In this document: one piece after another, positions 5,669-51,841 of the stretch | How positions within the stretch are numbered: position 1 is the first letter of the stretch | Layout: each line of letters opens with the position of its first letter | NCBI GenBank assembly: GCA_946555455.1 | Contig: CAMNSU010000008.1 | Coordinates: 226 to 64,225 of the forward strand | Source: an uncultured Clostridia bacterium | GTDB taxonomy: Bacteria; Bacillota; Clostridia; RUG12999 | DNA length: 64,000 nt | Direction of reading: 5' to 3' | Made by a program: the position numbers and the translations under genes | Notes under the pieces: model-generated | Databases searched by the model: none | What the model saw: only the letters and a program-made list of their open reading frames with translations | What the model was told of the DNA's origin: nothing

Positions 5669-8260
5669 TTAACGGTAGACAAACACACCGCGGTATTCTG
5701 TTCCCATACGTTTCGTGAACACATGGTCGCCCGGCATAATGCAGGCAGCGGTTTCCACTTCAATTTGGTCGCTCTCACTGTCATATACCAGCACTTTATC
5801 CGTAATATTCAGCGGAATGGTGCGGTTCCATTTATCCATCGGGAAGGCTGCCCCCTCTGCTGTTTCCTCCTCATTGGGAAGGTGATTGTTCACGATAATG
5901 CCTGTTCTGGTACGTGTAATTACTTCTCCGTAACTCATCAGATAGCCGCCGTTAAACGTTTTTTCATTTAACCCATATTCGTTTCCTGTTTCGGAGGTAA
6001 TGGCTTCGAATATGAGTGCACCGCCGTCTTTTTTCGGCACATGCTGAACCGCAATTCCGGTTAAACCGGTGAAATCCTCACTGATTTCCACAACAGTTCC
6101 GCGTTTCAAATCTTTTGCTTGAATCGTACTCAAACTCTTGTCGCCGGACATGATATTCCATTCGTTGGTGGTGATGGTTCCATCTTCCATCAACGCCGTC
6201 TTTTTCTTTCCGTTTGGCATATACATATCAAGCGCATAAACCGATTCGCCTTCTTTGTTTATTGTTTGATATACCCTGTCAACCATATAGGTGTCGCCCC
6301 AGAAGTCAACCCAACCTCCGACCGTGCGGGTTGTTTCCATAACCGCATACTGAATATCATAATCGTTGTTCACGTTATATAGTTTAATTTTCAGGCCGGT
6401 AAGCGTTGGTATGGAATTTCCCTGCTGCACATAACTTTCATCAAGGTCATTGGTGCATACCGTAAACACAACCGTGTTATCTCTTACCACATATTTAGAA
6501 CCGAGTATTCTTTTGCCGTTTAAATTAAGCGCCCGAAGTTCGCCGTCTTTTTCAAAGTTATAGTCCAGCGTAAATCCATTGTTGCCGCGGCTTCCGAGTG
6601 CACTTTTATTTTCTGCAATTTCTATGCTTGCGATCTCCCCAACGCTGTTTTCTTTAAACAGAATCAACTGCCGGTCAACTTCTCCGTTTTTCATGAATTT
6701 CGTTTCCACCAATTCTTTGCTTGTCATGCTACTGCCGTCCACCGACACTTTGCCACGCAGCGGAATCTCCCTTATTTTGCCGCTTTCATCGAGTATACCG
6801 ACAAAATATTTCCCAAGAGATTTCTGCCAGCATTTGATAAGGTAACCCGCCGTTGCATTGGTGCCTCCAACAGTGATATCTACGATTTTCCCAAGCACAT
6901 CAAATGATGCGGTCACACGGTCTCCGATTTTTACTTCTTCATTTCCTTTTATATTTTTTAAATAATCTTCGGTACATTCATATTCTTGTTCATCAATCGT
7001 AATATATTTATTATCGTCCCGCATAGACTTTAAGGTGCCTGTTACTTTTTGAGAGGTGGAAATCATATTGGTATATTCACCGCTGCGCGCCACCAAATAG
7101 GATAAAACCTGCGAACGAGAAAGAACACTGAAATCCATAACATTTCCCTGCGCATCGTACAGCTTATATCCCTCTTTAAAATATTCATTGATATCTAAAA
7201 TTTCTCCGTCTTTCAATAATATTTTCCCGGTCGTATACGCCACTTCTTCCACCAGCTTTGAGGTGTAGTGTTCAATCAATACGACCTCATATTTTCCGTC
7301 ATTGTTGTTATCTATCAATGTATATTCGCTGTCGGGTATTTCAAAATCCGCCGCCGTATAACTCGTTAATAGTTCGCGGTTATAAATAACGTCCACCGTT
7401 TCGGAAAGCACTGCCGTCTCTTTTCGGTTTTCCTCATAATATTCAATTCTTGTATCCGAACTTTTCGCAATATCCTCTGACGCGATTTTTACAATGTCGT
7501 TGTTTTTATACACCGTCAATGCACAGATATTATCTTCGTCTTGTTCTACATAAGCTCTCACAAATTTCCCCACATAATCGCTTCTGTCTTTCCTGTCATT
7601 GATGGTATATATAATACCGCCGATGTTGATATACCCTTCGCGCTGCGAACCGCTGCCGGTGATGGAATATGTATCCGTACCGTATACAATTCCCTGGACA
7701 ATTTTAATCTTCATGCGCGAGGACAGCAATGTTACATTTTTCAAAACCTTATATCCACTGTTTCCTCCGTCAAACACATGTGACATTGGCGCTGTCTTTG
7801 CCACTGCCTGATAAAGAATGTGCGCATATTGTCTCACATTCAAAATGCTATACTGGTTCAGCCCTGTATCTGAAATCATTTTTATTTCCCGCGCCATTAT
7901 CATATATGCATTTGCGTCGCTTGTATTTTTTCCTGTCAGCCGCATTTGTTCCGTATATCCGAGGACATCAATCAAAATCATTGCCGTCTGTCCGCAGCGT
8001 AATGGTTTTGATAAATCTTGACCCGCAAAATAAGTATTTGTATATAGGTCGCTGCCAAGCAATTTTGTCAAGCCGTTTGCCAGCGTGTTTTTGGTGACGT
8101 CGGAATCCGGTTCTGTGTTATCCAACAACCCCAGTTGAGAAAGCACGCTGATTTCCCAATCCTTGTCTTCCTCTATTTCCGCTGCGCTGACGGACAGATT
8201 CATTGCCAGCATTGATACTATCATCATCAGGGTTAGACCCAGTGCAATTATTTTTTTCAT
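5669..8260 (-). CDS. Secreted S-layer-like ~860-aa protein of unknown function (paralog of 49282-51816)
   Basis: Signal peptide MKKIIALG...SVSA, degenerate SLH-like N-terminus, beta-rich body with an LIDNNNDGKYEVV motif, ends VFVYR. RBS GAGGTG before 8260. Confidence 0.7.
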   Translation of the reverse strand: MKKIIALGLTLMMIVSMLAMNLSVSAAEIEEDKDWEISVLSQLGLLDNTEPDSDVTKNTLANGLTKLLGSDLYTNTYFAGQDLSKPLRCGQTAMILIDVLGYTEQMRLTGKNTSDANAYMIMAREIKMISDTGLNQYSILNVRQYAHILYQAVAKTAPMSHVFDGGNSGYKVLKNVTLLSSRMKIKIVQGIVYGTDTYSITGSGSQREGYINIGGIIYTINDRKDRSDYVGKFVRAYVEQDEDNICALTVYKNNDIVKIASEDIAKSSDTRIEYYEENRKETAVLSETVDVIYNRELLTSYTAADFEIPDSEYTLIDNNNDGKYEVVLIEHYTSKLVEEVAYTTGKILLKDGEILDINEYFKEGYKLYDAQGNVMDFSVLSRSQVLSYLVARSGEYTNMISTSQKVTGTLKSMRDDNKYITIDEQEYECTEDYLKNIKGNEEVKIGDRVTASFDVLGKIVDITVGGTNATAGYLIKCWQKSLGKYFVGILDESGKIREIPLRGKVSVDGSSMTSKELVETKFMKNGEVDRQLILFKENSVGEIASIEIAENKSALGSRGNNGFTLDYNFEKDGELRALNLNGKRILGSKYVVRDNTVVFTVCTNDLDESYVQQGNSIPTLTGLKIKLYNVNNDYDIQYAVMETTRTVGGWVDFWGDTYMVDRVYQTINKEGESVYALDMYMPNGKKKTALMEDGTITTNEWNIMSGDKSLSTIQAKDLKRGTVVEISEDFTGLTGIAVQHVPKKDGGALIFEAITSETGNEYGLNEKTFNGGYLMSYGEVITRTRTGIIVNNHLPNEEETAEGAAFPMDKWNRTIPLNITDKVLVYDSESDQIEVETAACIMPGDHVFTKRMGTEYRGVFVYR

Positions 8261-8272
8261 GCTTCTCACCTC

Positions 8273-9964
8273 TTAATCCTTCAATCCGCTCAGCATTGTA
8301 TAGACCAGCTTTGCAGTTTCACTGCGCAGCAGCGCGTTTTGCGGCAGGAAGGTTCCATCCTCATATCCGCTTATCACATCTGCGTTGACAAGTTCCAAAA
8401 CCGCTTCTTTCGCATAGCCGGAAATGTTCTCGCTGTCCGAAAATGCAATCTCTTTTTCCTCCGGATGCAGACGCAATCCGGCTGCCTTTACAGCGTTTAC
8501 TATCATCACTGCCGCGTCCTGACGGCTCACCTGCTGCATCGGTGCAAAGGTCGTTGGCGCTGTCCCATTTGTGATTCCGAGACCGGAACCGACTTTTACA
8601 TACTCGGCATACCATGCGTCATCAGGAACATCTTCAAACCAAACAGGATTTTGAACTTCTACATTTTCCAGATTTAACGCCGAAATCAGCACTTTAATAA
8701 ATTCCGCTCTTGTGATGGTGTCGTCCGGTCGGAACTGACCGTTGCCATCGCCGTTCATGATGTTATTTTCCGCCATATATTCAATATAAGATACTGCCCA
8801 CAGGGCATTTCCCAAATCATTGAATCTGCTGTTTCTGTCAAGCGAGGACACCAAATCAGAATTCACGCCGCCCGTTGTTGGCAAAAATGATCCGTTACTG
8901 TTTGCATCATTTCTTTTGACGGTTGTACCTCCGCCGCCTCCGACAACATTTTCTGTTTTCGGTTTGGACAACTCTGTGACAAGCGCGTTAAATTTATTCA
9001 CTATCGCTTGGGGCGTCATATAGGTTCTGCCCGCGATAATTCCTTTTGCCATTTGATAGGCGTCAACTGTTTTAAACTTACCTTCCAAATCAATCTTTAA
9101 TATGTCGTTATATTCTTTTATCACGTCAATAACGTTATCCCTGTTTGCCGCGTTCACTTTTGCAACGGCTTCCGAAGCGCGGAGAACATCTTCCAATTCC
9201 TTTGGTGTTGTCATGGTTTCCGTCTTTTTTAGATGGGCAAACACATCCGCTAATGCCGCATCCTTGTTTTTCACATCTGCAGAATAGGTAACGCCAAGAT
9301 ATTCTTCATATAAAAACAGTTTTGTGTAAATATCCGCGTCGGCGCAATTTTTAATCTCAGACAGCATACACGCCTTTTCAAATGCTTCCGCAACATCCTG
9401 TGCGTTTGTCGCACTGCCGCCCAAAATAGCGGCAGTATTTGTCTCAACCTCGCTTTTGTTTGCCTGGTAAATTGCCTTATCCATATCAAGGCTCCATACT
9501 TTATCCTGATATTTGCTGAGCACCGCTCCTATTGCCAACGCCGACGCACTGTTGATTTCTGTAACTGCAGTTTGCTCTTCCAAAGGATTGGCATATGTAA
9601 TGTCAATGATTTTTCCGTCCAGTTCTCCACCGCCGATGATTGCCTTATATACGCCGTACGGCGCCCCCTCGGCAAACAAGAAATTCACTGTATGACGCGT
9701 GAAAGCGCCGCTGATGTCGCTACTTGCGTCTATGCTCTCTATTTTATCAAACGCCGTTGAAATACCCTTCTCGTCTGTCGGCAGTTCCCCGCCGGGTTTC
9801 ATCAGATAGATGGTATACTGCGCTCTTCCGTAATCAGAGGACAAATTCACTTCCACCCTGTTCCCGCTGACACTTGCAGCCGTGTAGGTCTGCGCAAATG
9901 CGGCTGTGTTTAAACTGAGCGCCGCCGCACATGCGCAAACCAGCGCTATATATTTCTTTTTCAT
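8273..9964 (-). CDS. SLH-anchored surface protein (Ig-like, helical region, G-rich linker, 3 SLH)
   Basis: Signal peptide MKKKYIAL...AFA. C-terminal SLH repeats (FNDLGNALWA...ITRAEF, FEDVPDDAWY...VSRQDAA, FSDSENIS...LLRSETA). RBS before 9964. Confidence 0.88.
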   Translation of the reverse strand: MKKKYIALVCACAAALSLNTAAFAQTYTAASVSGNRVEVNLSSDYGRAQYTIYLMKPGGELPTDEKGISTAFDKIESIDASSDISGAFTRHTVNFLFAEGAPYGVYKAIIGGGELDGKIIDITYANPLEEQTAVTEINSASALAIGAVLSKYQDKVWSLDMDKAIYQANKSEVETNTAAILGGSATNAQDVAEAFEKACMLSEIKNCADADIYTKLFLYEEYLGVTYSADVKNKDAALADVFAHLKKTETMTTPKELEDVLRASEAVAKVNAANRDNVIDVIKEYNDILKIDLEGKFKTVDAYQMAKGIIAGRTYMTPQAIVNKFNALVTELSKPKTENVVGGGGGTTVKRNDANSNGSFLPTTGGVNSDLVSSLDRNSRFNDLGNALWAVSYIEYMAENNIMNGDGNGQFRPDDTITRAEFIKVLISALNLENVEVQNPVWFEDVPDDAWYAEYVKVGSGLGITNGTAPTTFAPMQQVSRQDAAVMIVNAVKAAGLRLHPEEKEIAFSDSENISGYAKEAVLELVNADVISGYEDGTFLPQNALLRSETAKLVYTMLSGLKD

Positions 9965-10008
9965 ATTCCTACCGTTCCTTTCCGCGCCAAAGAGATAGCG
10001 CACCGCTG

Positions 10009-12748: not shown

Positions 12749-15700
12749 TCAGTTTCCTCCTTTTACGATACGCACAGAACCGTATGCGCGCGCCTTTTTC
12801 ATATCTTCCATCACAACTGTTTTGATGAAATAATTTGCGCCTGCCGGAAGTTCTACCTCCGTTTCAATCACATCGTTTGCACCGATGTCGCGGCGCGTGA
12901 CATAATAAGTTTTCTCAACGCTGTATTGGCTTTGCGTTCCCTTGCAGACTGCTGCAATCAGCGTTGCGGCGGCAGTTTCTCCATAGGGATTGTTAATTTC
13001 AGTCGATACCTTGCCGTTTGCAAAACGCGTTTCACCGATATTCACCGCCGTTCCCGTTGTAAATGTTATGGTTTCGGTTTTCTCATTTTCAGCGCTCATT
13101 CCTTTGTAACAAACACCGACCACTTCCACTGCATAGCTGGTGTATGGCTTTAATCCTGTCAAAACAAACCGAACTGCCGTACCCTCCACAGAGATTGATG
13201 CACATTGTGCGCTGCTCTTTGTTTTGGTTCCGTCCGCGCTGATTTCATAAACCGTCACCCGTTCGCCCAAAACGTCTTCCAGTCTGTCATCATAGGTCAA
13301 AATATGCTCCGCATTCAGCGGCACATCTTTTGCACCGTCTGCGGGCGTTGCCCTCACCAATCTTGGCGTAATGGTTTTATATTCTACAATCGGATCCCAC
13401 ATGACATAGGAATCCCATGGCGAATTGCCGCCCTGCTTCCAGATAAACGCATTTTCAAACATCAGCTTGTCACCCGCACCAAGTTCAAGCGCAATTGGTT
13501 CAAAATGATACGCGCCCTTAATATTAATCCAATCCTCCGTCGGAAATACCTGTATGGGTTTAGAGCCATCCGCTCTCTGGCACATGATGCGGATATGCGT
13601 TCCGTTGACATCATTTTTTGCCCATATCGTATCGTTCGGCGCTTGTATGCTGACAGTTCCGTTCTTGGGTGATATAAATGTCCGCACCGAATAATCACGG
13701 TGTACCTTGAAATCTCCGCTTGTTTCTTCGGTTGTCGGGTCGCCCGGGTCAACAGTGGCGCGCATCGTATATTTACCAACCGCCACCCATCTCCAATCTT
13801 CACCCGCAATCCATACGGACCCATCCGGATATTCTCCTGTTTCCACATTCCAGTCGCCCATCATCAGGTTACCTTCCATCTTTGACGGCAAATCTTCGTA
13901 TTTCTTTGACGCTGCCTTATAGCTCTGCCATTTCCATGCGTCATCGCCGTTTTTCTCCATACTCCAACTATCCGATGCCCGATACACCTTCTTATTCAAA
14001 TCAGGATTTGGCGTCGGCGTCGGAACCGGCGGCGGTGTAGGCTCTGTACCGTCCCAATCCACGATTGTGTTTGTCCACATCTGTTCATATCCATAGCTTG
14101 TGCTTTCTTTTAATATCACTTCAAAACGAATGATATCCCCCGCTTTGACGTCTTTCAGCCTTTGTTCTGGTTGTACCAGTTTGATGCTGTCAACCCAGTT
14201 TGATGTCCAGATTACCTTGTCATTCAGCTTGATGTTGTACTGAATTTCCGACCATGTTTTTTGAGTAATTTCTGTTTCTAAAATCCTCAGTTTACCGTCT
14301 TTGGGAACTATAAATTTTCGTACAGGGTGTCTATCTTGATTCTCCCCGCCCGTTACCTTCATTCTGTTACCATAAACGACAGGCTGCTTTTCATCCGTAC
14401 TGTTTTCCGCATATCCCCCGCTATATTCCGCTTTTGCGTCCGTGTATGTTTTGTCAGCCGAATGGTATATTTCCGCGCTCCATACATTTTCCCATACGCC
14501 GCTGCCGTCTTCCGGAATAAAATTATGCGATGACTTATAGGTTCCCTCTTCCAAAGGAGGCGCAGGCGTAGGCTTCGGCGTTGGGGTAGGCGTTGGGTCA
14601 GGTGTAAATTCATCTATGTATTTTAGTGTGTTTATCCACTCTACAGACGTACTCGTTCCGGCGTTTGCACTTGCCGCTTCAAAATAGATGATATCACCTT
14701 GACTTATCTGTAATTCAATAGCCTCCTGTTCGGTGGTTCCATTCCCTGCAATTTCGGTAGCTCCGCTTCCCCAAATATGTTTTAAATCGCCGCCGGTTGA
14801 CCGGTGTCTTATCTGCACCTTAGCCGCCGCTGCACTTTTGTTTGTAATCGTTGTTTTCTCTATTCTTAAAATGCCTTCTTGCGGCGCTGTAAATGCTCTC
14901 GCAGTAAAGTTTTGAGTTGTTGTATCTGTTTCCAGTGTGCTGCCGTCTACCTTTGCCAAACCGTTTTCCAGCCAGCTTAAATTATATTTATTATCTGCAA
15001 CATTCGTTAAATCACTATAAATCCACCAGTCCTGTACATAGCATTTTGCACTCCATATGCCGCCGTCCCATGTTCCGTCAGCCGCCGTCGTACTGAAATT
15101 TTTATTTGAAATATAGATTAGCGGCGCGACAGTTATTTTTATTTTCACTTCTTTGATAAAGTCCGTATAATTTGCACGCGAAACCTTTACTGTTACAGTG
15201 TGTTCGCATACCGCCGTATAACTTGGCGCATCCGCTGTAAATTCACCCGCATCAAGTTTATAAGTAACCGTATCGCCCGCACGCGTACCGGTTATTGTCA
15301 CGCCGTGCGCCGCACCGTCCTCACTTCCTTCATAGCCTGCAACGTCAATGTCTGTGATTGCCGCCGGCTTAATATTCACCGGTATCAGTAAATCTTTTAT
15401 TCTGAAACTATTAATATCCAGCGGTGTAAATACCGCATCAAATTTCTGATTGTCGCCCGCATTCACAGCAGCGTTCGGCGTTTTCCACGAAAATGACCCA
15501 GGCGTATTTCCCGAAGGTATTGAAATATCTGCAAGCGAAATATTCAATAACTTCATGCCATCTATATAGGTCACATCCGCAAGCGTTGGAACCGTCACAA
15601 TCGGCTCCTGTACACCCCGCGCATTGATAGCAATTGTTTTCGATAGGCTCACAAAAGAGGAAGCCGTCGCTTTATATCGAACGTTATAGCTGCCCGGCGC

Positions 15701-23827: not shown

Positions 23828-25159
23828 TTATTTTATTTCCGCATATTTACATAAAGGGTCCATCGTGTTTAAAGAATCCCATATAACCACCTTAATGCTG
23901 CCTCCGGTTTCTTTAATCGTTTCACCCATACTAAATTCTATATCATTTGAAAAATCCGTTATCTCCTCGGTACATAATTTAATATATCTGCCGTCACTGT
24001 CATAAAAGGCGACTATTGCAGTGCCTGCGTTGTTTTTCTTCATTTCGTCTGTCATTGGTATATGTACTTTCACATTGTCAGTTGAAACAATACTGTTAAA
24101 ATTATTCAGCTTGTCTCCGTTTGCATCCAGAAATTCAGGCATGATCTGCGGTTTTTCTTCAGATGGATTATTATTATTTATATCTACAACAAACTGCGCC
24201 GCGCTTATCCACTGTTTATTTGAAAAATCACGTCCCTTTACGAGTATTTTATCATTATACACTTCAACGCAAAGCCCTTGACTGCCCTCATAATCCGCCG
24301 AAGTATTATTTACCATACTTACCATTTTTCCTATTGCCGCATCGTTAAAATAACTCGGTTTGTCTTTTCCGCCCAAAAGCGCTGGCTGGACGCACTCAAG
24401 ATTGATATGAGTATGCCCACTGAATACCAAAACATTGGGGTATGAATCCAAAATTTCTCTTAATTCACTGTCCTGCACCACTCCGTTCCAGTTTTGGTTT
24501 AAATTCTCAAGCGTTCCCGAAACGGTATTTTTAAGCGGCTGATGTATAAACACATATGCTCTTGTTCCTTCCTGCTTTGCGCGTTTCAGCGCGCCCTTTA
24601 ACCAGTCAAGCTGGTCTTGATGCAAATCGGCGTGTCCGTTCTGCGTTTGCGTCTGACTTCCCAAGTGAATGAAATACTGTCCGTTTATTTTATGGGCATA
24701 ATAAACACTGTCCGTCGGTTCAGCCGAAACAGAATTGGTATATTTAAGATAACGTTCTATTTTTTCTCCATATGTTCCCTGTTCCTCATACTTTAGTTCA
24801 TGGTTGCCGATTGTAAAATACATTGGTATACTGTTGCCGATTGTATCATTGATAGCTTTTACCAGTTGCTCCCAGCATCCATCTATATTTGACTCAACGT
24901 TATCGCCGTTTGTAATAATCGCTGATGTATTCGGGTCTGTCTCTTGAATATCCGTCAGTGCGGCACGTATTTTAGGCTGCTGGAAAAATCCGTCCCAGTT
25001 GCCCGAATGCAAATCAGAAATCACCCAAAACGAAAATTGTTTTTCGGATGGTTCGCTGTTTTCAGCAAAAACAAAATTAGGTGTCCACACTGTTATCAGC
25101 ATGAGTACCGCCGCAATACATGTAGTCAATTTATATACCACTGTTTTTAAATTCCTCAT
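23828..25159 (-). CDS. Secreted calcineurin-like metallophosphoesterase with C-terminal WDS-type domain
   Basis: Signal peptide, and SDLH, NGD, GNHE, FIH and SGHTH metal-binding motifs. Ends KVVIWDSLNTMDPL. Confidence 0.9.
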   Translation of the reverse strand: MRNLKTVVYKLTTCIAAVLMLITVWTPNFVFAENSEPSEKQFSFWVISDLHSGNWDGFFQQPKIRAALTDIQETDPNTSAIITNGDNVESNIDGCWEQLVKAINDTIGNSIPMYFTIGNHELKYEEQGTYGEKIERYLKYTNSVSAEPTDSVYYAHKINGQYFIHLGSQTQTQNGHADLHQDQLDWLKGALKRAKQEGTRAYVFIHQPLKNTVSGTLENLNQNWNGVVQDSELREILDSYPNVLVFSGHTHINLECVQPALLGGKDKPSYFNDAAIGKMVSMVNNTSADYEGSQGLCVEVYNDKILVKGRDFSNKQWISAAQFVVDINNNNPSEEKPQIMPEFLDANGDKLNNFNSIVSTDNVKVHIPMTDEMKKNNAGTAIVAFYDSDGRYIKLCTEEITDFSNDIEFSMGETIKETGGSIKVVIWDSLNTMDPLCKYAEIK

Positions 25160-42581: not shown

Positions 42582-45500
42582 TTAGTTGATAATCGTTTTT
42601 GCCTGCCAAAGCGGTTTTAGATTCACAAAGGAATCCCAAATATACGCAACCACTTTATCGCCGTTATTTGTTGGAATCATATAGGTAATCGATTGCCATG
42701 TATTGTTCTGCGCAATCGGCGTCAGCGTTTCCACCGGCGTACAGGACACTAAGCGTTCACCGCTGTCATATGCTGCAAATACAAATTGCGGCGCAGCATT
42801 ATTCCCTGCCGAATGATTGAGTGCTTCAATCCTAATGGTAGTCGTTCCGTCTGTGTTGGATTCGGTATAATATTCCCCAAACTCTATTGCCGGCGGTTCA
42901 AAACCGCCGTTTTCTATCAGTTCTTTTCCCGTTGCCGTATCAACAACGCTCAATTTATCCAGATAAAAACGATTCACGCCATTATAATCCTGCAAGAACA
43001 ATAGCGCTTGATTTTCGCTTTGCAATATATAATCTTTCACTTCAAACTTATACCATCCGTTTGCATCCGGTCCTGTTACAGTCTGCCCCACATCCGGATA
43101 CTTTGTACCGGATAGGTACGGTGCATTATTCGCAATACACAGTCCTTCCGCTGTAATATATAAGGTTTTGATATCCCCTTTGAAACAGAAGCTAATATCG
43201 TACTTCCCACCGGTTGCCATGCCAAATGCGGCGCATCTTGCTGCAATCGGATACCAGTCCTTCACACTGTGATTAATATATACGGACCAATCCCCTTCAT
43301 ATGCCTCTTTAGCAGAATAGGAAACACCGTCTACAACAACGTCATTTAGTAATTCTTTGATATTCGGCGCATGTTTTCTGATGGGTTCTTCTTCCGGCGC
43401 CGCCGGTACTGCAGGCTCAAAACCGCCGTTTTCTATCAGTTCTTTTCCTGTTGCTGTATCAACAACGCTCAATTTATCCAGATAAAAACGATTCACGCCA
43501 TTATAATCCTGCAAGAACAATAGCGCTTGATTTTCGCTTTGCAATATATAATCTTTCACTTCAAACTTATACCATCCGTTTGCATCCGGTCCTGTTACAG
43601 TCTGCCCCACATCCGGATACTTTGTACCGGATAGGTACGGTGCATTATTCGCAATACACAGTCCTTCCGCTGTAATATATAAGGTTTTGATATCCCCTTT
43701 GAAACAGAAGCTAATATCGTACTTCCCACCGGTTGCCATACCAAATGCGGCGCATCTTGCTGCAATCGGATACCAATTCAATTCACTACGATTCACATAC
43801 AGCGACCATTTGCCCTCATACGCCTCCTCAGACGAATAAGAAACGCCGTCAATCTCCGCATTATTATGCAATTCTCTGATGATATTATCTGTATGCACAC
43901 CTGCTTCAACGCTTATCAACATAGGCGTATATGCTTTTACCGCCGCACTTCCTTTGTAGGTTTCTGTGCTAATTAAATCAGTAAATGCTTTTACTTTTTG
44001 TCCGTTCCTGTAAATTTCTATTTCCTTATCGGTCTCACTATAGCTGCAAAGATTAATAATCGTATTGCCATCATACTCAGAGCACAAGTATTCACAGTCC
44101 GTAAGCGGCTTACCGGTTGCCGTATCAATAATGCGGATACTTCCGTCGTTTCCGACAGCATTACTAACCGCTTCCCCCACTTTTGCTGCACATTCTGCAG
44201 TAAGATTTCCTCTGTTTGCAGAAATTTCAACAACCTCCGCATTCTGTAACACTGATGATGCATCACGCGTACGACCATACATATCTTTTGACAGTGAATC
44301 ACTGCCCAGCACAACTAATCTGCCGCCGCTTTCCACAAAACGCTTAACAGCATTAAATCCTGCATCATTCACTGCGACTACATGTGGGATGATAAGGCAT
44401 TTCAAATCACTCATCTTTTCCAATGACGCTTCCGTTTCTGTTGCAATAAACTGTGTTTTTTGTCCATTTTCTCCCAGCTTTGCATATGCCGTATAAATAG
44501 CATTCATATAGTCGTCTGCATACGGAATATTCTCTGCCGCATACAACATTCCCACATTTGCTTTTGCTTCGCTGATGGACACAATTTCTTTTGCCAAACG
44601 GTTTAAATCTAGAGTTGTTTTCCCAATTGCCGCAACGGTAGCCGGACGCTCCTTCAGCGCCAAAGAATAACTATTTTGCTCGTTTTGTCTGTTCCAAGGC
44701 CAGATGATTGTACCTCCTTTACCGTGAACAGCACCCTGCCACAAAGCGGCTGTGTTGTACGCCCGTTCCACCTCGGAGAAACTTATCTCTTCTGCGTCCA
44801 GATACAGATGTTCTTCTGAATTATATATTGGTGCGTTTTTCACAGACGTCTGATAATCATAGAAAATATCCTGTGTCCTGATGTCAAGTCGATTTCGCTG
44901 CGCTGAATTGGTGAACGCGTCACAACTGTTGATATCAAGCGTCGGCGCAAGCGCCTCCCAGTTGTTTGCACTGCCAAACCTCTGAAATGTGTTTGTATAC
45001 ATCATATTCTGCTGCATTTTTGTCTGAACAAGCACATTGGTATCATATTTTTTTACCAGACCTGCGGCATATTGATGATACCTTGCTAAAACTTGGTCGT
45101 TAAATTGGCGCCAATCATGGAATTGCGGCGTTGCCTCCTGCGCTATAGGCATAGTCACCTGTTCAAAATCGGTATAATTCGTTCCCCATTTGCTGTTCAA
45201 AGACGCAATATCGTTATATTTTTCCTCCATCGCCTCCTGAAATAATGGCAAATAATATGCCGAATCTTTATAGGTTATATATACAGGCTCATTCATCAAT
45301 ATAATGCCGTCAAAGGCAGGTTTGCCCGCAAGCGCCGGCATAATGGCGTTATAATAATCCGCATAATATTTTTTGACTTTAGGATGATCCAGCAGTGTGT
45401 TGGTAGAAAATATCCAGTTCTGTGCCGAATGAATTTCCGGATAGTCCTCGCGGTATACCTCCGGTATCCCATGAGCGCCAACATTAAAGATTCCGGACAG

Positions 45501-46625
45501 ATTATGCTCCGCCATCAGGTCAAAGTCTTTCGCAAGACCGCCGATTTCCTCCTCGTTGATTTTCCAATATGAGCTTTCGTCCCGTTCCGTCTTTTCAAAA
45601 TCACCGTTGAGCAGCAAATTGATATCAGAACCTTTTTCCTTTATATAGATATCGTCCATCCAAACTTCTGTCGGTTTTTCAATGCAGATTACGAACGTAA
45701 GGGTATGTTCATCGGCTCCGGTGGTATACTCTGCCGAAATTTCTTTCCAATCCGCAACCACTCCGCTCACCCAATTCCGCGTATTCCATTCCCAGTTTGG
45801 ATGCACATGAAACCATGTACCCGCGGCGCCGGCAGGCGCTTTTGCCCATAATCCGTATCGGTATGTAGTGTTTGGCTTCACCTGCACTGTCTGTTTCATA
45901 TACCAATAGTTGTTTTCCTTTTGCGAAGTGGTAGATTCCAGTTTCAACGCCTGGGCGCCTCCATGTTTTTGTTCTGTTACAATTTGGTAGTCTACAGGAT
46001 ATTCGCCCACTTTCCGCTCTGTCCAATTATAGATTGGAAACGTCTCTCTACTCATAAAAGAATTTCCTCCGAGTTCGGGCTGAATCGCGTTAAACCCAAA
46101 CTTGGAAAGTATCGGTATTTCACTGCGGGATGCCCATTGATGCCCTGTTCCTACAAAAAACACCGGTTGTTTTTCTAAAGTGCCGTCATTATCCACGGTC
46201 GCTTCAAAATGTTTATTTACTACCGAAATATCCGAAGTAACATAGGTAGGCGCCGACAGAGGCTGTCTTGTTCCGCCGAGGTATGCAATCAGATTTTCTT
46301 TGGTCTTTTTATAAAGTTCTGTTAATTCTCTGTCTTGCTCTGCCGCATTTTCTGTGCTTCCTTTGGATAAATTCTCTTCCATGTAATTTGGAAATTGCCC
46401 AAGCACATTATAATTAATCTCGTCATACTCCAGCTGCATTCCTCTGTTTTTACATTCCTCCATTAAGGGAGTCAGTTCCGCATATTCCGTCCGATGCTTG
46501 TCAATCATTGCCTGAACCGTCTGCACCTCCGTTTGTGCGTTTACGCTTACCGACAAACCTCCCAATAACATCGCAACACCCACAACACAAGCCGTCAATC
46601 TTTTTTGCTTGAATATGTTTTTCAT
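42582..46625 (-). CDS. Secreted GH42-like glycosidase with two C-terminal CBM-like repeats and a WDS-type domain
   Basis: Signal peptide, LMNEP and YNSEEH motifs. Catalytic core clearly paralogous to 38448-42560. Ends AYIWDSFVNLKPL. RBS before 46625. Confidence 0.75.
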   Translation of the reverse strand: MKNIFKQKRLTACVVGVAMLLGGLSVSVNAQTEVQTVQAMIDKHRTEYAELTPLMEECKNRGMQLEYDEINYNVLGQFPNYMEENLSKGSTENAAEQDRELTELYKKTKENLIAYLGGTRQPLSAPTYVTSDISVVNKHFEATVDNDGTLEKQPVFFVGTGHQWASRSEIPILSKFGFNAIQPELGGNSFMSRETFPIYNWTERKVGEYPVDYQIVTEQKHGGAQALKLESTTSQKENNYWYMKQTVQVKPNTTYRYGLWAKAPAGAAGTWFHVHPNWEWNTRNWVSGVVADWKEISAEYTTGADEHTLTFVICIEKPTEVWMDDIYIKEKGSDINLLLNGDFEKTERDESSYWKINEEEIGGLAKDFDLMAEHNLSGIFNVGAHGIPEVYREDYPEIHSAQNWIFSTNTLLDHPKVKKYYADYYNAIMPALAGKPAFDGIILMNEPVYITYKDSAYYLPLFQEAMEEKYNDIASLNSKWGTNYTDFEQVTMPIAQEATPQFHDWRQFNDQVLARYHQYAAGLVKKYDTNVLVQTKMQQNMMYTNTFQRFGSANNWEALAPTLDINSCDAFTNSAQRNRLDIRTQDIFYDYQTSVKNAPIYNSEEHLYLDAEEISFSEVERAYNTAALWQGAVHGKGGTIIWPWNRQNEQNSYSLALKERPATVAAIGKTTLDLNRLAKEIVSISEAKANVGMLYAAENIPYADDYMNAIYTAYAKLGENGQKTQFIATETEASLEKMSDLKCLIIPHVVAVNDAGFNAVKRFVESGGRLVVLGSDSLSKDMYGRTRDASSVLQNAEVVEISANRGNLTAECAAKVGEAVSNAVGNDGSIRIIDTATGKPLTDCEYLCSEYDGNTIINLCSYSETDKEIEIYRNGQKVKAFTDLISTETYKGSAAVKAYTPMLISVEAGVHTDNIIRELHNNAEIDGVSYSSEEAYEGKWSLYVNRSELNWYPIAARCAAFGMATGGKYDISFCFKGDIKTLYITAEGLCIANNAPYLSGTKYPDVGQTVTGPDANGWYKFEVKDYILQSENQALLFLQDYNGVNRFYLDKLSVVDTATGKELIENGGFEPAVPAAPEEEPIRKHAPNIKELLNDVVVDGVSYSAKEAYEGDWSVYINHSVKDWYPIAARCAAFGMATGGKYDISFCFKGDIKTLYITAEGLCIANNAPYLSGTKYPDVGQTVTGPDANGWYKFEVKDYILQSENQALLFLQDYNGVNRFYLDKLSVVDTATGKELIENGGFEPPAIEFGEYYTESNTDGTTTIRIEALNHSAGNNAAPQFVFAAYDSGERLVSCTPVETLTPIAQNNTWQSITYMIPTNNGDKVVAYIWDSFVNLKPLWQAKTIIN
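42898..43775. repeat. Intragenic near-perfect direct repeat (2 x 359 bp, offset 519 bp)
   Basis: 42898-43256 versus 43417-43775; only 3 differences seen by eye. Confidence 0.9.
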
Positions 46626-46653
46626 ATTTGTTATCTCCACCTTTAGCCAGCTA

Positions 46654-49227
46654 TTATTTCGTGATTGACTGTGCAGGCATCAGCAGCGTCATACCATCTG
46701 CCGAATCCCAAAGATACGCAATTATTTTTTCGCCGCTCTTCGCTTTGATAGTTTGCGTAAGCGTTACCCATTGATTGTTCTCCGGAATTGTATTTGGCTC
46801 TGCATCTTTTGAGCACGCCGTCATATATGTTCCGTTATATGCCGCTACAATAAGCTGCGCAGTTGCATTTTCGCCGGCAGAATGATTGATAACTTTAATC
46901 GAAACTGTTTTTCCGCCATCCGCATTGTCTGTAATCTTATAATCGCCAAATTCCATTGCCGGAGGTTCAAAGCCGCCGTTTTCTATCAATTCATTGCCGG
47001 TTGCCACATCGACAATACTTAAATTATCCAAATAGAATTTATTTCCTTTTTCAGCGTTATTTTGTATAAAGAAGAGGGTTCTGATTTCACCATCGAACGT
47101 ATAACCCTTTATCTCATACTTGCGCCAGCCGTTTGCATCAGCTGCGGACAATGTGTTACCGTTACCGGAATAGAAATCTTTATTTTCCCAGATACAGTAT
47201 TTTTGAGCATTTATAATATAAAAGCCCTGAACGTCACCGTTTATATAAAAGCTTATATCATATGTTTTGCCGTTCTCCATTCCAAAATCTCCGCATTTTT
47301 TGGTGAATCTGTAATAATCGCTCCCATCTACAGTATGATTGATATATACAGATCTGATGCCGGCATATGCCTTATCTGTTGAATAAGTGATTCCCGGCAT
47401 TTCAGCTGTATTACGAAATTCTCTTATAATATTATCTGTTCTTGTAATCGGTTCAGTTGGTTCTGGCGGTGTAGTTGGTGTTATCGTTGGCGGTGGTGTT
47501 GGCGGTGTTTCAATAGGTTCAAAACTGCCGTTCTGCACCAATTCTGGTCCTTCGCTGTTATCTGCATTCACTTCCTTGATACTCAACCCATCCAGATAAA
47601 AATCGCCGCCGCCTTTGTTCCAGTCAGTTTCCGGATCAATAGAGAACAACGGAAGGCTGTTTACCCAGTCGCTTGATTCGCCCGTATGTGCATTTGTCCA
47701 ATTCAGATAATACCATCCATCTCCTACAGGCTCAAATGTAGAAGTTGCATATCCGGTTGGAGACAAAGAATCAGTAGAATTATTCTTCTTGGGTTCGGTC
47801 GGAGAATTTGCATCAAACATAATTCTCGCATTTCCAATATTGGCATAGAACCGTTTGACATTTCCTTTTAAATAGAATCTGACATTATATATTTTGTTAC
47901 TCTCCAAACCAAAATCTGACCATTTTGCTGAGATGCCCTTACCGTTTTCCGGATCTTTTACATGTACCGACCAATCCCCTTCATATGCTTCTTTCGCTGA
48001 ATATTCCACTCCGTCTATTACCGCTGTATTATGAAGTTCCTTTATAATATTATCTGTTCTGACAGGTGTTTCTGTTGGTGTCGGTGTCGGCGTCGGTGTT
48101 GGTGTCGGCGTTGACGGTGTTTCAATAAGTTCAAAGCTACCATTTTCCACAAGCTCCTTATTGGCTGACTTGTCAATAACGCTTAAGTTATCTATATAGA
48201 AATTATTCTCGCCGTTATAATCCTGCATAAACAACAACGCCTGAGAGTTATCCTTCAATGTATAGTTTTGCACTTCAAACTTATACCAGCCGTTTGCATC
48301 AGGTCCCGTTACTTTTTGACCTACGTCCGGATAATTTGTTCCTGATATATACGGCTTATTATCCGTGACACACAAACTCCACGCCGTAAGATATACTGTT
48401 CTTATATCGCCCTTAAAATAGAAACTAATATCATACTGATTACCGTTTATCATTCCAAAATCAGCACAGTTGGCTGAAAGCTTATAGTAATTACCGGCTT
48501 TAGCATTAATATGTACGGACCAATCTCCTTCATACGCTTCCGCAGTCGAATAGACAACGCCGCCAACCTCCGCCGTATTGTGTAATTCTTTGACAATATT
48601 ATCTTCCCGTTCCGACGGCACCGACGGATCTACCACCCCTGCCGGTTCAAAACTGCCGTTTTCTATCAGTTCCTTATCATTATTTCCCTTGTCAATAACA
48701 CTTAAGTTATCCAAATAAAAATCGTTCGCATGATACCAATTCGCTATAAATATCAATTCCCGATTCTCGTTAATCAGCGAATAATTCTTCACTTCAAATT
48801 TATACCAGCCGTTTGCATCAGGTCCTGTCACCGTTTGCCCTACATTCGGATACTTAGCAGAACCGTCTAAATAAATTTTATTCTCACCGATACACATTCC
48901 CTCTGCTGTGACATATATGCATTGTGCATCGCCTTTGAAACAGAAACTAATATCATATGTTCCACCGGTTGTCATTCCAAAATCCGCGCATGGCGCTGCA
49001 ATTGGATACCAGCTACTGCTACTATGGCTGACATGCACCGACCACTCTCCTTCATATGCTTCCGCGTTAGAATAGGTGACGCCATCAATCTCCGTCGTAT
49101 TATGTAATTCTGTTATAATGTTGACGCGGCTTTCAGCGGCAAACGCCGCATAATTATCTGCTCCAAATGTTAAGAACATAACCGCCAGCGTCAAGATCGA
49201 TACAAACCTTTTTGCGTTTCCATTCAT
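46654..49227 (-). CDS. Secreted non-catalytic protein with four CBM-like modules and a WDS-type C-terminal domain
   Basis: Signal peptide, four ELHNT...AYEG.WSV...FYLDNLS...ELIENG.FEP repeats separated by PT linkers. RBS AAGGAG before 49227. Confidence 0.8.
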   Translation of the reverse strand: MNGNAKRFVSILTLAVMFLTFGADNYAAFAAESRVNIITELHNTTEIDGVTYSNAEAYEGEWSVHVSHSSSSWYPIAAPCADFGMTTGGTYDISFCFKGDAQCIYVTAEGMCIGENKIYLDGSAKYPNVGQTVTGPDANGWYKFEVKNYSLINENRELIFIANWYHANDFYLDNLSVIDKGNNDKELIENGSFEPAGVVDPSVPSEREDNIVKELHNTAEVGGVVYSTAEAYEGDWSVHINAKAGNYYKLSANCADFGMINGNQYDISFYFKGDIRTVYLTAWSLCVTDNKPYISGTNYPDVGQKVTGPDANGWYKFEVQNYTLKDNSQALLFMQDYNGENNFYIDNLSVIDKSANKELVENGSFELIETPSTPTPTPTPTPTPTETPVRTDNIIKELHNTAVIDGVEYSAKEAYEGDWSVHVKDPENGKGISAKWSDFGLESNKIYNVRFYLKGNVKRFYANIGNARIMFDANSPTEPKKNNSTDSLSPTGYATSTFEPVGDGWYYLNWTNAHTGESSDWVNSLPLFSIDPETDWNKGGGDFYLDGLSIKEVNADNSEGPELVQNGSFEPIETPPTPPPTITPTTPPEPTEPITRTDNIIREFRNTAEMPGITYSTDKAYAGIRSVYINHTVDGSDYYRFTKKCGDFGMENGKTYDISFYINGDVQGFYIINAQKYCIWENKDFYSGNGNTLSAADANGWRKYEIKGYTFDGEIRTLFFIQNNAEKGNKFYLDNLSIVDVATGNELIENGGFEPPAMEFGDYKITDNADGGKTVSIKVINHSAGENATAQLIVAAYNGTYMTACSKDAEPNTIPENNQWVTLTQTIKAKSGEKIIAYLWDSADGMTLLMPAQSITK

Positions 49228-49281
49228 TTTTTTCACTCCTTTGATGATACCGCTTTGAATCTCTATCTCTTTACACACTTT

Positions 49282-51816: not shown

Positions 51817-51841
51817 CGGTTTATTCTCCTTTCCGCCGCAT

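What the first reader, a model, noticed from the sequence alone, without database searches (positions are those of the whole stretch)
23828..24150. Shared unnamed C-terminal 'A.Y..G ... WDS...PL' domain on unrelated secreted proteins: a candidate docking tag
Seen: a ~100-aa terminal domain ends the phosphoesterase (IVAFYDSDG...KVVIWDSLNTMDPL), the GH42-like enzyme (42582-42895; FAAYDSGE...AYIWDSFVNLKPL) and the four-module protein (46654-46960; VAAYNG...AYLWDSADGMTLL). A divergent version ends the 1577-aa protein (12749-13050; LIAAVCKG...KTVVMEDM). These proteins lack SLH, LPxTG or a TM anchor. Inference: this is a dockerin-equivalent sorting domain that attaches secreted cargo to the SLH module or cell wall.
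Basis: partly seen in the sequence, partly recalled or inferred. Interest (0 to 1): 0.8.

Follow-up and report, generated by a model that had tools for sequence, protein, structure and literature searches.

The report
Unnamed Ig-like tail on secreted proteins
Three secreted proteins in this gut Clostridia window end in the same small beta-sandwich domain, which belongs to a large uncatalogued family on anchorless secreted proteins of Clostridia and Paenibacillus and may hold them at the cell surface, but binding to the neighbouring S-layer proteins is not shown.

Summary
The phosphoesterase, the GH42-like enzyme and the four-module protein end in a homologous domain of about 85-100 aa (BLASTP E 8e-29 and 5e-5). 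The fourth case, the 1577-aa protein, is not statistically supported.

AlphaFold gives a confident all-beta Ig/Fn3-like sandwich (pLDDT 95.8). Pfam and NCBIfam do not name it. It is a distant relative of the uncharacterised FxLYD (NF038353) and CARDB (PF07705) domains, and the window copies fail both models.

The family is large. A narrow motif scan of species genomes hit its 120-locus limit, and 118 hits were genuine. Nearly all are Clostridia or Paenibacillus.

- 86% of copies end within 15 aa of the stop codon.
- Carriers have signal peptides and very mixed cargo (LRR adhesins, lyases, proteases, CHAP).
- Only 1 of 126 also carries SLH.
- In phosphoesterase homologues the same slot holds a membrane anchor, dockerin, choline-binding repeats or Cu_amine_oxidN1.

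Surface retention is therefore the best reading (about 0.45). Docking onto the SLH pair recurs as gene linkage in this lineage but is unproven. The domain also occurs with no SLH gene in the flank surveyed, and in Clostridium loci that use CWB2 anchors.

The parts
23831..24151 (-). C-terminal domain (CTD) of the secreted metallophosphoesterase P0002, residues 337-443. The HMM core is residues 359-439, which is nt 23843-24085.
   Evidence: Family HMM E = 3e-23. BLASTP against the P0003 tail gives E = 5e-5. In the full-length AlphaFold model the region 342-442 is a beta domain with pLDDT 83-95, behind a low-confidence hinge at 327-340.
42585..42896 (-). CTD of the GH42-like enzyme P0003 (last 104 aa).
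   Evidence: Family HMM E = 4e-27. BLASTP against the P0004 tail gives E = 8e-29.
46657..46965 (-). CTD of the four-module CBM-like protein P0004 (last 103 aa). This is the copy that was modelled.
   Evidence: Family HMM E = 7e-29. AlphaFold pLDDT 95.8, pTM 0.87, nine beta strands.
12752..13057 (-). C-terminal ~100 aa of the 1577-aa protein P0005. It may be a diverged relative without the W-D-S / M-x-P motif, but this is not established.
   Evidence: No HMM hit. hhalign E = 0.0033, probability 9.8%, colinear over 63 columns.
23828..25159 (-). Cargo gene 1: secreted calcineurin-like metallophosphoesterase (443 aa).
   Evidence: Pfam Metallophos E = 1.4e-15. Signal peptide, with no other hydrophobic segment.
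42582..46640 (-). Cargo gene 2: GH42-like enzyme with CBM_4_9-like modules (1352 aa).
   Evidence: Pfam Glyco_hydro_42 E = 5e-12. Signal peptide.
46654..49278 (-). Cargo gene 3: enzyme-free protein made of four CBM_4_9 / choice-of-anchor-C-like modules (874 aa).
8273..10003 (-). SLH protein of locus 1 (three C-terminal SLH repeats). It is a candidate receptor only; binding is unproven.
   Evidence: Pfam SLH E = 1.1e-34.
5669..8269 (-). ~860-aa partner protein of locus 1 (P0007).
   Evidence: No Pfam hit. 26% identical to P0006. Homologues occur in L112, L109, L124 and L129.
51842..53281 (-). SLH protein of locus 2 (three C-terminal SLH repeats).
   Evidence: Pfam SLH E = 5.1e-39.
49282..51855 (-). 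~860-aa partner protein of locus 2 (P0006). It lies directly upstream of the two CTD-bearing genes.

Best explanation
The three tails are copies of one mobile beta-sandwich domain of about 85-100 aa with an Ig/Fn3-like (E-set) fold. It is a diverged sister of the uncharacterised FxLYD and CARDB domains.

Its hallmarks are an A-x-Y-D hairpin and a K-[AV]-[FY]-x-W-[DN]-S-[LI]-x-x-M-x-P-[LI] block. The block spans the end of the penultimate strand, the loop that follows, and the start of the last strand.

The domain is appended, almost always at the extreme C-terminus, to Sec-secreted extracellular proteins of Clostridia and Paenibacillus that have no other anchor.

The most likely role is non-covalent retention of the cargo at the cell's own surface. 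The domain would bind an envelope component or an envelope-anchored protein through its conserved loop face. The receptor is unknown and need not be the SLH pair.

Shown here: homology, fold, distribution, terminal position, cargo diversity, and near-absence of SLH from the same polypeptides.

Inferred: the retention function and the binding face.
For: Family and fold:
- Homology of the three copies.
- A 3-sequence profile found 67 cluster representatives, of which 4 were checked and are repeat or low-complexity false positives.
- The motif scan of species genomes hit its 120-locus limit, and 118 hits were confirmed by HMM. Nearly all are Clostridia or Bacillota MAGs, with Paenibacillus, Clostridium ljungdahlii, ragsdalei, tetanomorphum and luticellarii, Monoglobus and Ruminococcus. 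Several genomes have 3-4 hits.
- AlphaFold gives pLDDT 95.8 and an all-beta fold.
- Foldseek finds only generic Ig/Fn3 sandwiches, TM 0.5-0.57, and no CBM among the 50 matches listed.

Features that fit a retention tag:
- Position: 101 of 117 ORFs, and 65 of 66 representative proteins, have a copy ending within 15 aa of the stop codon. Tandem terminal copies of 2-3 occur.
- Carriers start with Sec signal peptides.
- Cargo shares no substrate: BspA LRR, Big_2, Flg_new, PL11 lyases, subtilases, CHAP, M6 peptidase, DUF4430, cohesin, pectinesterase.
- SLH is in the same ORF in 1 of 126 cases and in none of the representative hit proteins checked.
- Slot replacement among 90 homologues of the P0002 catalytic domain: the C-terminus carries this CTD, or a TM anchor (27), or dockerin, choline-binding repeats or Cu_amine_oxidN1.
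- Wall-anchored proteins are often encoded next door. SLH genes are directly adjacent in 11 of 118 loci. CWB2-DUF4430 proteins lie beside CTD proteins in Clostridium s.s., and a DUF4430 paralogue there carries the CTD instead.
- In P0002 a low-confidence hinge separates the CTD from the enzyme.
Against: - There is no experimental or structural evidence of any binding.
- The fold is a generic Ig-like sandwich. Comparable C-terminal sandwiches in GH3 and GH2 enzymes, the top Foldseek hits, are not known anchors.
- About 14% of copies are internal or N-terminal, for example between the GH95 and pectinesterase modules and before DUF4855.
- The domain is acidic, with median pI 4.6, unlike the basic wall binders that recognise anionic polymers. 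The SLH repeats measured here are also acidic.
- The conserved D-S-L..M.P block could simply be a structural turn.
- The conservation statistics are inflated, because most sequences were ascertained through that motif.
- Some secreted proteins in the same locus, such as 38448-42560, have neither a CTD nor a known anchor.
Confidence: 0.45

Rival explanations
1. First reader's version. The CTD is a dockerin-equivalent that plugs specifically into the SLH protein and/or its ~860-aa partner encoded in the same loci, so that cargo is displayed on an S-layer-anchored scaffold.
For: - Both window loci hold the pair next to or near CTD genes.
- The same pair recurs beside CTD genes in L112, L109, L124/125 (four CTD proteins within 22 kb) and L129.
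- An SLH gene is directly adjacent, on the same strand, in 11 of 118 loci.
- The SLH proteins next to CTD genes in L015, L060, L067 and L072 share a homologous N-terminal region.
Against: - The partner family is present in only 2-3 of 118 CTD loci.
- Most loci, and two of three sampled 20-kb neighbourhoods, have no SLH gene.
- The Clostridium s.s. loci use CWB2 proteins instead.
- The N-terminal regions of the window SLH proteins are not demonstrably homologous to those of the other adjacent SLH proteins.
- Such pairs may simply be standard parts of glycan loci in this lineage.
- No complex prediction was possible with the tools available.
Confidence: 0.12
2. The CTD is a purely structural terminal Ig-like domain. 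It acts as a cap that stabilises the cargo, protects its C-terminus from proteolysis or serves as a spacer, and it has no binding partner.
For: - The best structural matches are non-binding sandwiches inside GH3 and GH2 enzymes.
- The relatives FxLYD and CARDB have no known ligand.
- P0003 and P0004 join the CTD to the preceding module without a PT-rich linker.
- Internal copies exist.
Against: - A spacer or cap does not explain the 86% extreme-terminal placement.
- It does not explain the near-absence of SLH from the same polypeptides.
- It does not explain replacement by TM anchors, dockerin or choline-binding repeats in homologues.
- It does not explain the tandem terminal copies.
- The most conserved block is a polar/aromatic loop rather than core strands.
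Confidence: 0.2
3. The CTD is a new carbohydrate-binding or lectin-like module. It targets cargo to a common glycan, such as a substrate, host mucin or the cell's own wall polysaccharide.
For: - Many carriers are CAZymes, and CBMs are often terminal and tandem.
- The conserved Tyr, Phe and Trp plus Asp and Ser could form a sugar-binding platform.
- CBM9, NPCBM-associated and Laminin_G modules also occur on phosphoesterase homologues.
Against: - Cargo includes proteases, CHAP amidases, LRR adhesins, B12-locus DUF4430 proteins and phosphoesterases, which share no substrate.
- There is no sequence or fold match to any CBM.
- If the ligand were the cell's own wall glycan, this reading merges with the best explanation.
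Confidence: 0.15
4. The CTD is a C-terminal sorting signal read by a dedicated export, processing or attachment machine. It would be a monoderm analogue of the T9SS C-terminal domain, possibly removed after sorting.
For: - It has the same size, fold class and extreme C-terminal position as T9SS CTDs.
- The last two strands are the most conserved part.
- There are several paralogues per genome.
Against: - Only 2 of 41 members give faint Por_Secre_tail hits, with E of 0.086 or worse.
- Carriers have ordinary Sec signal peptides.
- No conserved candidate machinery was seen in the neighbourhoods.
- Internal and N-terminal copies exist.
Confidence: 0.05

Closest known systems
FxLYD domain (NCBIfam NF038353)
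   Same: It is a small E-set-type sandwich with the same V-x-V-x-N ... [FL]-x-[LA]-Y-D strand pattern. Ten of 41 family members hit the model, with a best E of 1.5e-7 and 31.2 bits. The family consensus scores 20.1 bits.
   Different: The three window copies give no hit, and the consensus falls below the 23-bit cut-off. In its best match the 71-position model ends just before the W-D-S...M-x-P block and last strand that define this family. FxLYD has no described function, and no paper in the library mentions it.
CARDB domain (Pfam PF07705)
   Same: It is an Ig-like sandwich of bacterial and archaeal surface proteins. Three of 41 members hit it, with a best E of 1.7e-7.
   Different: The window copies do not hit. 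This family has its own C-terminal motif and a strong terminal position. CARDB's function is also unknown.
Type I dockerin (PF00404) of cellulosomes
   Same: It is a short module at the C-terminus of many unrelated secreted enzymes that have no other anchor. It occupies the same slot in phosphoesterase homologues P0085 and P0156.
   Different: Dockerin is a Ca-binding duplicated helical module with a known cohesin receptor. This domain is all-beta and has no known receptor.
SLH (PF00395) and CW_binding_2 (PF04122) wall anchors
   Same: They are terminal modules that hold Firmicute proteins on the wall. They are almost never combined with this domain in one chain. They are encoded on neighbouring or paralogous proteins.
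   Different: There is no sequence or fold relation. Those anchors act as triplets that bind secondary cell-wall polymers. This domain is usually single, and no ligand is known.
T9SS C-terminal domain (Por_Secre_tail, PF18962)
   Same: It is an Ig-like sandwich of about 80-100 aa at the extreme C-terminus of diverse secreted cargo.
   Different: It belongs to diderm Bacteroidota and needs the T9SS. Only faint hits were found here, with E of 0.086 or worse.
C-terminal Fn3-like domain of GH3 beta-glucosidases (PF14310; e.g. PDB 2X41, 7MS2)
   Same: It gives the best Foldseek matches, E 6e-4 to 8e-4 and TM about 0.5. It is a terminal sandwich on glycosidases.
   Different: RMSD is about 5 A at 13-16% identity. 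That domain is an integral part of one enzyme family, not a mobile module on unrelated cargo.

Membership tests
FxLYD_dom (NF038353) | Score at or above the curated 23-bit cut-off of the NCBIfam model | tested here: not met
   The three window CTDs give no hit at E up to 10. The family consensus scores 20.1 bits. One relative (P0029, copy 2) scores 31.2 bits. Ten of 41 members hit at E up to 1.
CARDB (PF07705) | Significant match to the Pfam model | tested here: not met
   No CARDB hit for the whole window proteins. The isolated P0004 tail gives none at E up to 10. Three of 41 family members hit, with a best E of 1.7e-7.
Dockerin type I (PF00404) | Duplicated Ca-binding loop-helix motif and match to the Pfam model | tested here: not met
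   No Pfam hit. The model is all-beta with nine strands.
Dockerin-like docking module (functional class) | A defined receptor module that it binds | not testable with these tools
   No complex prediction or binding assay was available. There is only gene linkage to SLH or CWB2 proteins.
SLH (PF00395) | SLH repeats in the CTD-bearing proteins | tested here: not met
   None in P0002-P0005. Present in 1 of 126 CTD ORFs from other genomes.
Sortase substrate (LPXTG anchor) | C-terminal LPXTG motif, then a hydrophobic segment, then a basic tail | tested here: not met
   No such motif or C-terminal hydrophobic segment was found. The proteins end 4-5 aa after the domain.
Characterised carbohydrate-binding module | Sequence or fold match to a CBM family | tested here: not met
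   No CBM family matches the tail in Pfam. There is no significant PDB sequence hit. No CBM is among the 50 Foldseek matches listed. Sugar binding itself was not testable.
T9SS C-terminal domain (PF18962) | Match to Por_Secre_tail and a host with a T9SS | tested here: not met
   Two of 41 members match, with E of 0.086 or worse. The hosts are Bacillota.
E-set / Ig-like beta-sandwich fold | Two-sheet sandwich of 7-9 strands, about 100 aa | tested here: met
   AlphaFold gives pLDDT 95.8 with nine strands. Foldseek matches the Ig/Fn3-like domains of GH3 and GH2 enzymes and CsgH.

The most novel reading that the evidence does not exclude
The CTD is the plug of an unrecognised, cohesin-independent surface-display system of Bacillota. 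It would dock anchorless enzymes, adhesins and binding proteins onto wall-anchored receptor proteins encoded alongside. In this gut Clostridia lineage the receptor would be the SLH protein and/or its ~860-aa partner. In Clostridium sensu stricto it would be the CWB2-DUF4430 proteins. Each glycan or B12 locus would then assemble its own surface complex.
Probability: 0.12. Interest if true: 0.8.

Novelty: new variant of a known kind. Interest (0 to 1): 0.45.

Why it matters
Many enzymes and adhesins of uncultured gut Clostridia are secreted with no recognisable anchor, so where they act is unclear.

If this tail is a retention or docking module, it would:
- explain how whole glycan-utilisation loci are displayed on the cell;
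- give annotators a marker for surface-exposed proteins across Clostridia and Paenibacillus;
- offer a small tag for surface display in Gram-positive hosts.

If it is only a structural cap, the result is mainly a new domain family that should be added to Pfam or NCBIfam.

Tried and rejected
No census of the window's own genome and no genome-level co-occurrence test with SLH, CWB2 or the partner family could be run.

Searches that failed or returned nothing:
I replaced it with a hand-designed degenerate DNA pattern.
- The search for homologous proteins restricted to the P0004 tail found nothing.
- Five literature searches, including 'FxLYD', found nothing on this domain.

False positives set aside:
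- Four of the 67 profile hits (P0016, P0055, P0061, P0069) are HAF-type or low-complexity repeats.

Tests that gave no signal:
- I tested whether SLH proteins adjacent to CTD genes form one receptor family with the window SLH proteins. Four of them (L015, L060, L067, L072) are related to each other. The window's are not detectably related to them (hhalign E = 0.031).
- I tested for SLH repeats in the partner proteins P0006 and P0007 and found none.
- Net charge as a clue to wall binding was uninformative, because the CTD and the local SLH repeats are both acidic.
- The newer Pfam accessions PF26182 and PF26918 seen in the precomputed lists are not this domain. They occur on proteins without it, and many CTD proteins have no Pfam entry at all.
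Full report
**Observation**

The window holds two parallel carbohydrate-utilisation loci on the minus strand. Each has a solute-binding protein, two permeases, glycosidases, an SLH protein and an unannotated partner protein of about 860 aa.

The coordinates in the finding are the 3' ends of four ORFs:
- P0002, a 443-aa metallophosphoesterase;
- P0003, a 1352-aa GH42-like enzyme;
- P0004, an 874-aa protein of four CBM_4_9-like modules;
- P0005, a 1577-aa protein.

The quoted motifs are present.

The P0003 and P0004 tails are 40% identical (BLASTP E = 8e-29). The P0002 tail matches P0003 at E = 5e-5. An HMM rebuilt from database relatives finds exactly these three in a six-frame translation of the window, with E 3e-23 to 7e-29, and nothing else.

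The P0005 tail is not detected by either HMM. BLASTP gives E = 0.002 over 21 aa. hhalign gives a colinear 63-column alignment with E = 0.0033 but only 9.8% probability. It may be a diverged relative that lacks the W-D-S/M-x-P motif, but that is not shown.

All four proteins have N-terminal signal peptides. None has SLH, a C-terminal LPxTG-like motif or a second hydrophobic segment.

**What the domain is**

Pfam-A and NCBIfam give no hit on the window tails. The newer Pfam hits precomputed for P0002 and its close relatives list only Metallophos. Many CTD-bearing 'cell surface proteins' have no Pfam entry at all.

AlphaFold2 was run on a 41-sequence alignment with the P0004 tail as target. It gives pLDDT 95.8, pTM 0.87 and nine beta strands.

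Foldseek against the PDB finds only generic sandwiches, and no CBM is among the 50 matches listed:
- the GH3 C-terminal Fn3-like domain, E about 6e-4 and TM about 0.5;
- the GH2 Ig-like domain;
- CsgH;
- an archaeal pilin.

A profile search of PDB sequences finds nothing significant.

Scanning family members one by one shows distant kinship to two uncharacterised families. For NCBIfam FxLYD_dom, 10 of 41 members hit, the best at 1.5e-7 and 31.2 bits, while the consensus scores 20.1 bits against a cut-off of 23. For Pfam CARDB, 3 of 41 members hit, the best at 1.7e-7. The window copies hit neither.

So this is an uncatalogued, diverged branch of the E-set FxLYD/CARDB-like sandwiches. The best-conserved positions, in P0004-tail numbering, are N27, I39, A41, Y43, D44, L48, G78 and the block K82-[AV]-[FY]-x-W86-[DN]-S-[LI]-x-x-M92-x-P94-[LI]. 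That block runs from the end of the penultimate strand through the loop into the last strand. These values are inflated, because most sequences were found through that motif.

**Distribution**

A shallow 3-sequence profile against 1.84 billion cluster representatives found 67 hits. Four that I checked are repeat or low-complexity false positives.

I then scanned one genome per species with a degenerate DNA pattern for [KR][AVM][FY]xW[DN]Sx..MxPx. Only about a quarter of family members would match it. The scan stopped at its 120-locus limit, and 118 loci were confirmed by HMM.

The hosts are almost all Clostridia or other Bacillota. They include gut and rumen MAGs, Monoglobus, Ruminococcus, Lachnospiraceae, Oscillospiraceae, Epulonipiscium, and Clostridium ljungdahlii, ragsdalei, tetanomorphum and luticellarii, plus Paenibacillus. 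Two odd bins are probably contamination. Several genomes gave 3-4 hits.

**Behaviour of the domain**

- Position. 101 of 117 ORFs that end in a stop, and 65 of 66 representative proteins, have a copy ending within 15 aa of the C-terminus. Tandem terminal copies of 2-3 occur.
- Exceptions. The rest are N-terminal or internal. Examples are GH95-CTD-pectinesterase fusions, copies before pectinesterase or beta-helix modules, and a copy before DUF4855 in a Paenibacillus.
- Export. Carriers start with Sec signal peptides.
- Cargo is very mixed. In 54 full-length proteins I found BspA-type LRR (8), Big_2 (7), Flg_new (4), PL11 lyases (3), subtilases, DUF4430, pectinesterases, CHAP, cohesin, hyaluronate-lyase beta domain and M6 peptidase. 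No known anchor is among the 25 most frequent families. Other carriers hold GH141, an alpha/alpha-toroid domain and CBM_4_9 arrays.
- SLH is in the same ORF only once in 126 cases, and in none of the representative hit proteins checked.
- The domain is acidic, with median pI 4.6.

**Slot replacement**

I examined 90 homologues of the P0002 catalytic domain. The C-terminus carries one of the following:
- this CTD (P0076, P0077, P0078, P0080, P0081, P0082);
- a hydrophobic anchor with a basic tail (27 proteins);
- dockerin (P0085, P0156);
- choline-binding repeats (P0101);
- Cu_amine_oxidN1 (P0157);
- in Paenibacillus, a W-less Ig-like tail that the HMM touches only at E about 0.2-0.3.

In the full-length P0002 model (pLDDT 90.2), a low-confidence hinge at 327-340 separates the enzyme from the CTD.

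**Link to SLH proteins**

In the 8-kb loci, 15 of 118 contain an SLH gene. All are on the same strand as the CTD gene. Eleven are directly adjacent, mostly immediately downstream. Four of those SLH proteins (L015, L060, L067, L072) share a homologous N-terminal region. The window's SLH proteins are not detectably related to it.

The partner family (P0006/P0007) appears in L112 and L109. It also appears in two of the larger neighbourhoods I fetched:
- L124/125 holds an SLH protein, a partner with two clear N-terminal SLH repeats, and four CTD proteins within 22 kb.
- L129 holds the pair about 5 kb downstream of a CTD gene.

So the trio recurs in this lineage.

The link is not general, however. 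L130 and L131 have no SLH gene within 10 kb on either side. In Clostridium sensu stricto, the CTD 'cell surface proteins' sit in ECF-transporter/DUF4430 loci beside CW_binding_2 proteins. A DUF4430 paralogue there carries the CTD instead. The domain is therefore not tied to SLH.

**Interpretation**

Several features together are what a localisation or retention module would show, and are hard to explain by a substrate-specific CBM or a mere spacer:
- terminal placement;
- anchorless Sec cargo of unrelated function;
- near-absence of SLH from the same chains;
- several copies per genome;
- tandem terminal copies;
- replacement by bona fide anchors in homologues;
- frequent neighbours that carry wall anchors.

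I therefore favour non-covalent surface retention through an unknown envelope ligand or anchored protein (0.45).

Docking specifically onto the SLH/partner pair remains possible in this lineage (0.12). It is supported only by gene linkage.

The other live rivals are a purely structural cap (0.20), a lectin-like module (0.15) and a sorting signal for unknown machinery (0.05).

**Earlier notes of this scan**

Notes e1-3106536 and e1-5138686 describe the same family in two other genomes and reach the same reading. They are not independent evidence. They did supply the FxLYD lead, which I tested.

**Limits**

The copy number in the window's own genome and the genome-level co-occurrence with SLH, CWB2 or the partner family are unknown.
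- No complex prediction was possible.
- Model coordinates could not be inspected.

Noticed in passing
P0079 (database protein, 424 aa; compare window 23828-25159 and 5669-8269): The N-terminal ~300 aa are the P0002-type phosphoesterase. The last ~110 aa match the C-terminus of the partner protein P0007 and end in ...GVFVYR. This is either a natural deletion or fusion between the two genes, or an assembly chimera.
   Followed up: no
window 5669-8269 and 49282-51855: The partner proteins P0006 and P0007 show no detectable SLH repeats. Their homologues in L124/125, L129 and L109 carry one or two clear N-terminal SLH repeats. The window copies may have lost or degraded their own anchor.
   Followed up: partly
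L124 12232-13893 versus L125 12232-13893: The same gene is called as 459 aa plus 81 aa in one assembly and as one 553-aa protein in the other. In L124 the 81-aa piece matches the CTD model. A stop or frameshift, or a sequencing error, splits the tail off.
   Followed up: no
P0084, P0086, P0089-P0098 (phosphoesterase homologues): Twenty-seven of 90 homologues end in a hydrophobic helix plus a KKRKE[DN]-type tail. In the sequences read, the helix is preceded by a small Gly/Cys/Ser-rich motif such as 'SGCGSALS'. This looks like a C-terminal sorting or anchor signal without LPXTG.
   Followed up: no
L126, L127, L128 (Clostridium aciditolerans and related contigs): There is conserved synteny: a CW_binding_2+DUF4430 protein, ECF transporter genes (CbiQ, ABC ATPase, S component), an unannotated ~265-aa protein, and then a ~1000-aa CTD 'cell surface protein'. 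In L127 a DUF4430 protein that also ends in the CTD follows directly. It looks like a cobalamin-type capture locus with two kinds of surface proteins.
   Followed up: partly
L029, L048 (L035, L052 and L058 have the CTD at the same internal position): Giant bifunctional proteins carry a GH95 module, this domain, and then a pectinesterase module about 860 aa long. This suggests fusion of a CTD-terminated enzyme with the downstream gene.
   Followed up: partly
window 38448-42560: The second GH42-like protein (1370 aa) has a signal peptide but no CTD and no hydrophobic or LPxTG-type C-terminal anchor, so not all secreted proteins of the locus carry the tail.
   Followed up: no
P0012 (database protein, 329 aa): It combines the Trp-rich N-terminal module of the P0005 type with a P0002-type CTD. 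Modules of the window's proteins are therefore shuffled among relatives.
   Followed up: no
L017 4561-7702: A protein with two cohesin domains, helical repeats and this CTD is followed directly by a protein with three SLH repeats whose N-terminal domain looks cohesin-like by eye. Together they resemble a split or duplicated anchoring scaffoldin.
   Followed up: partly
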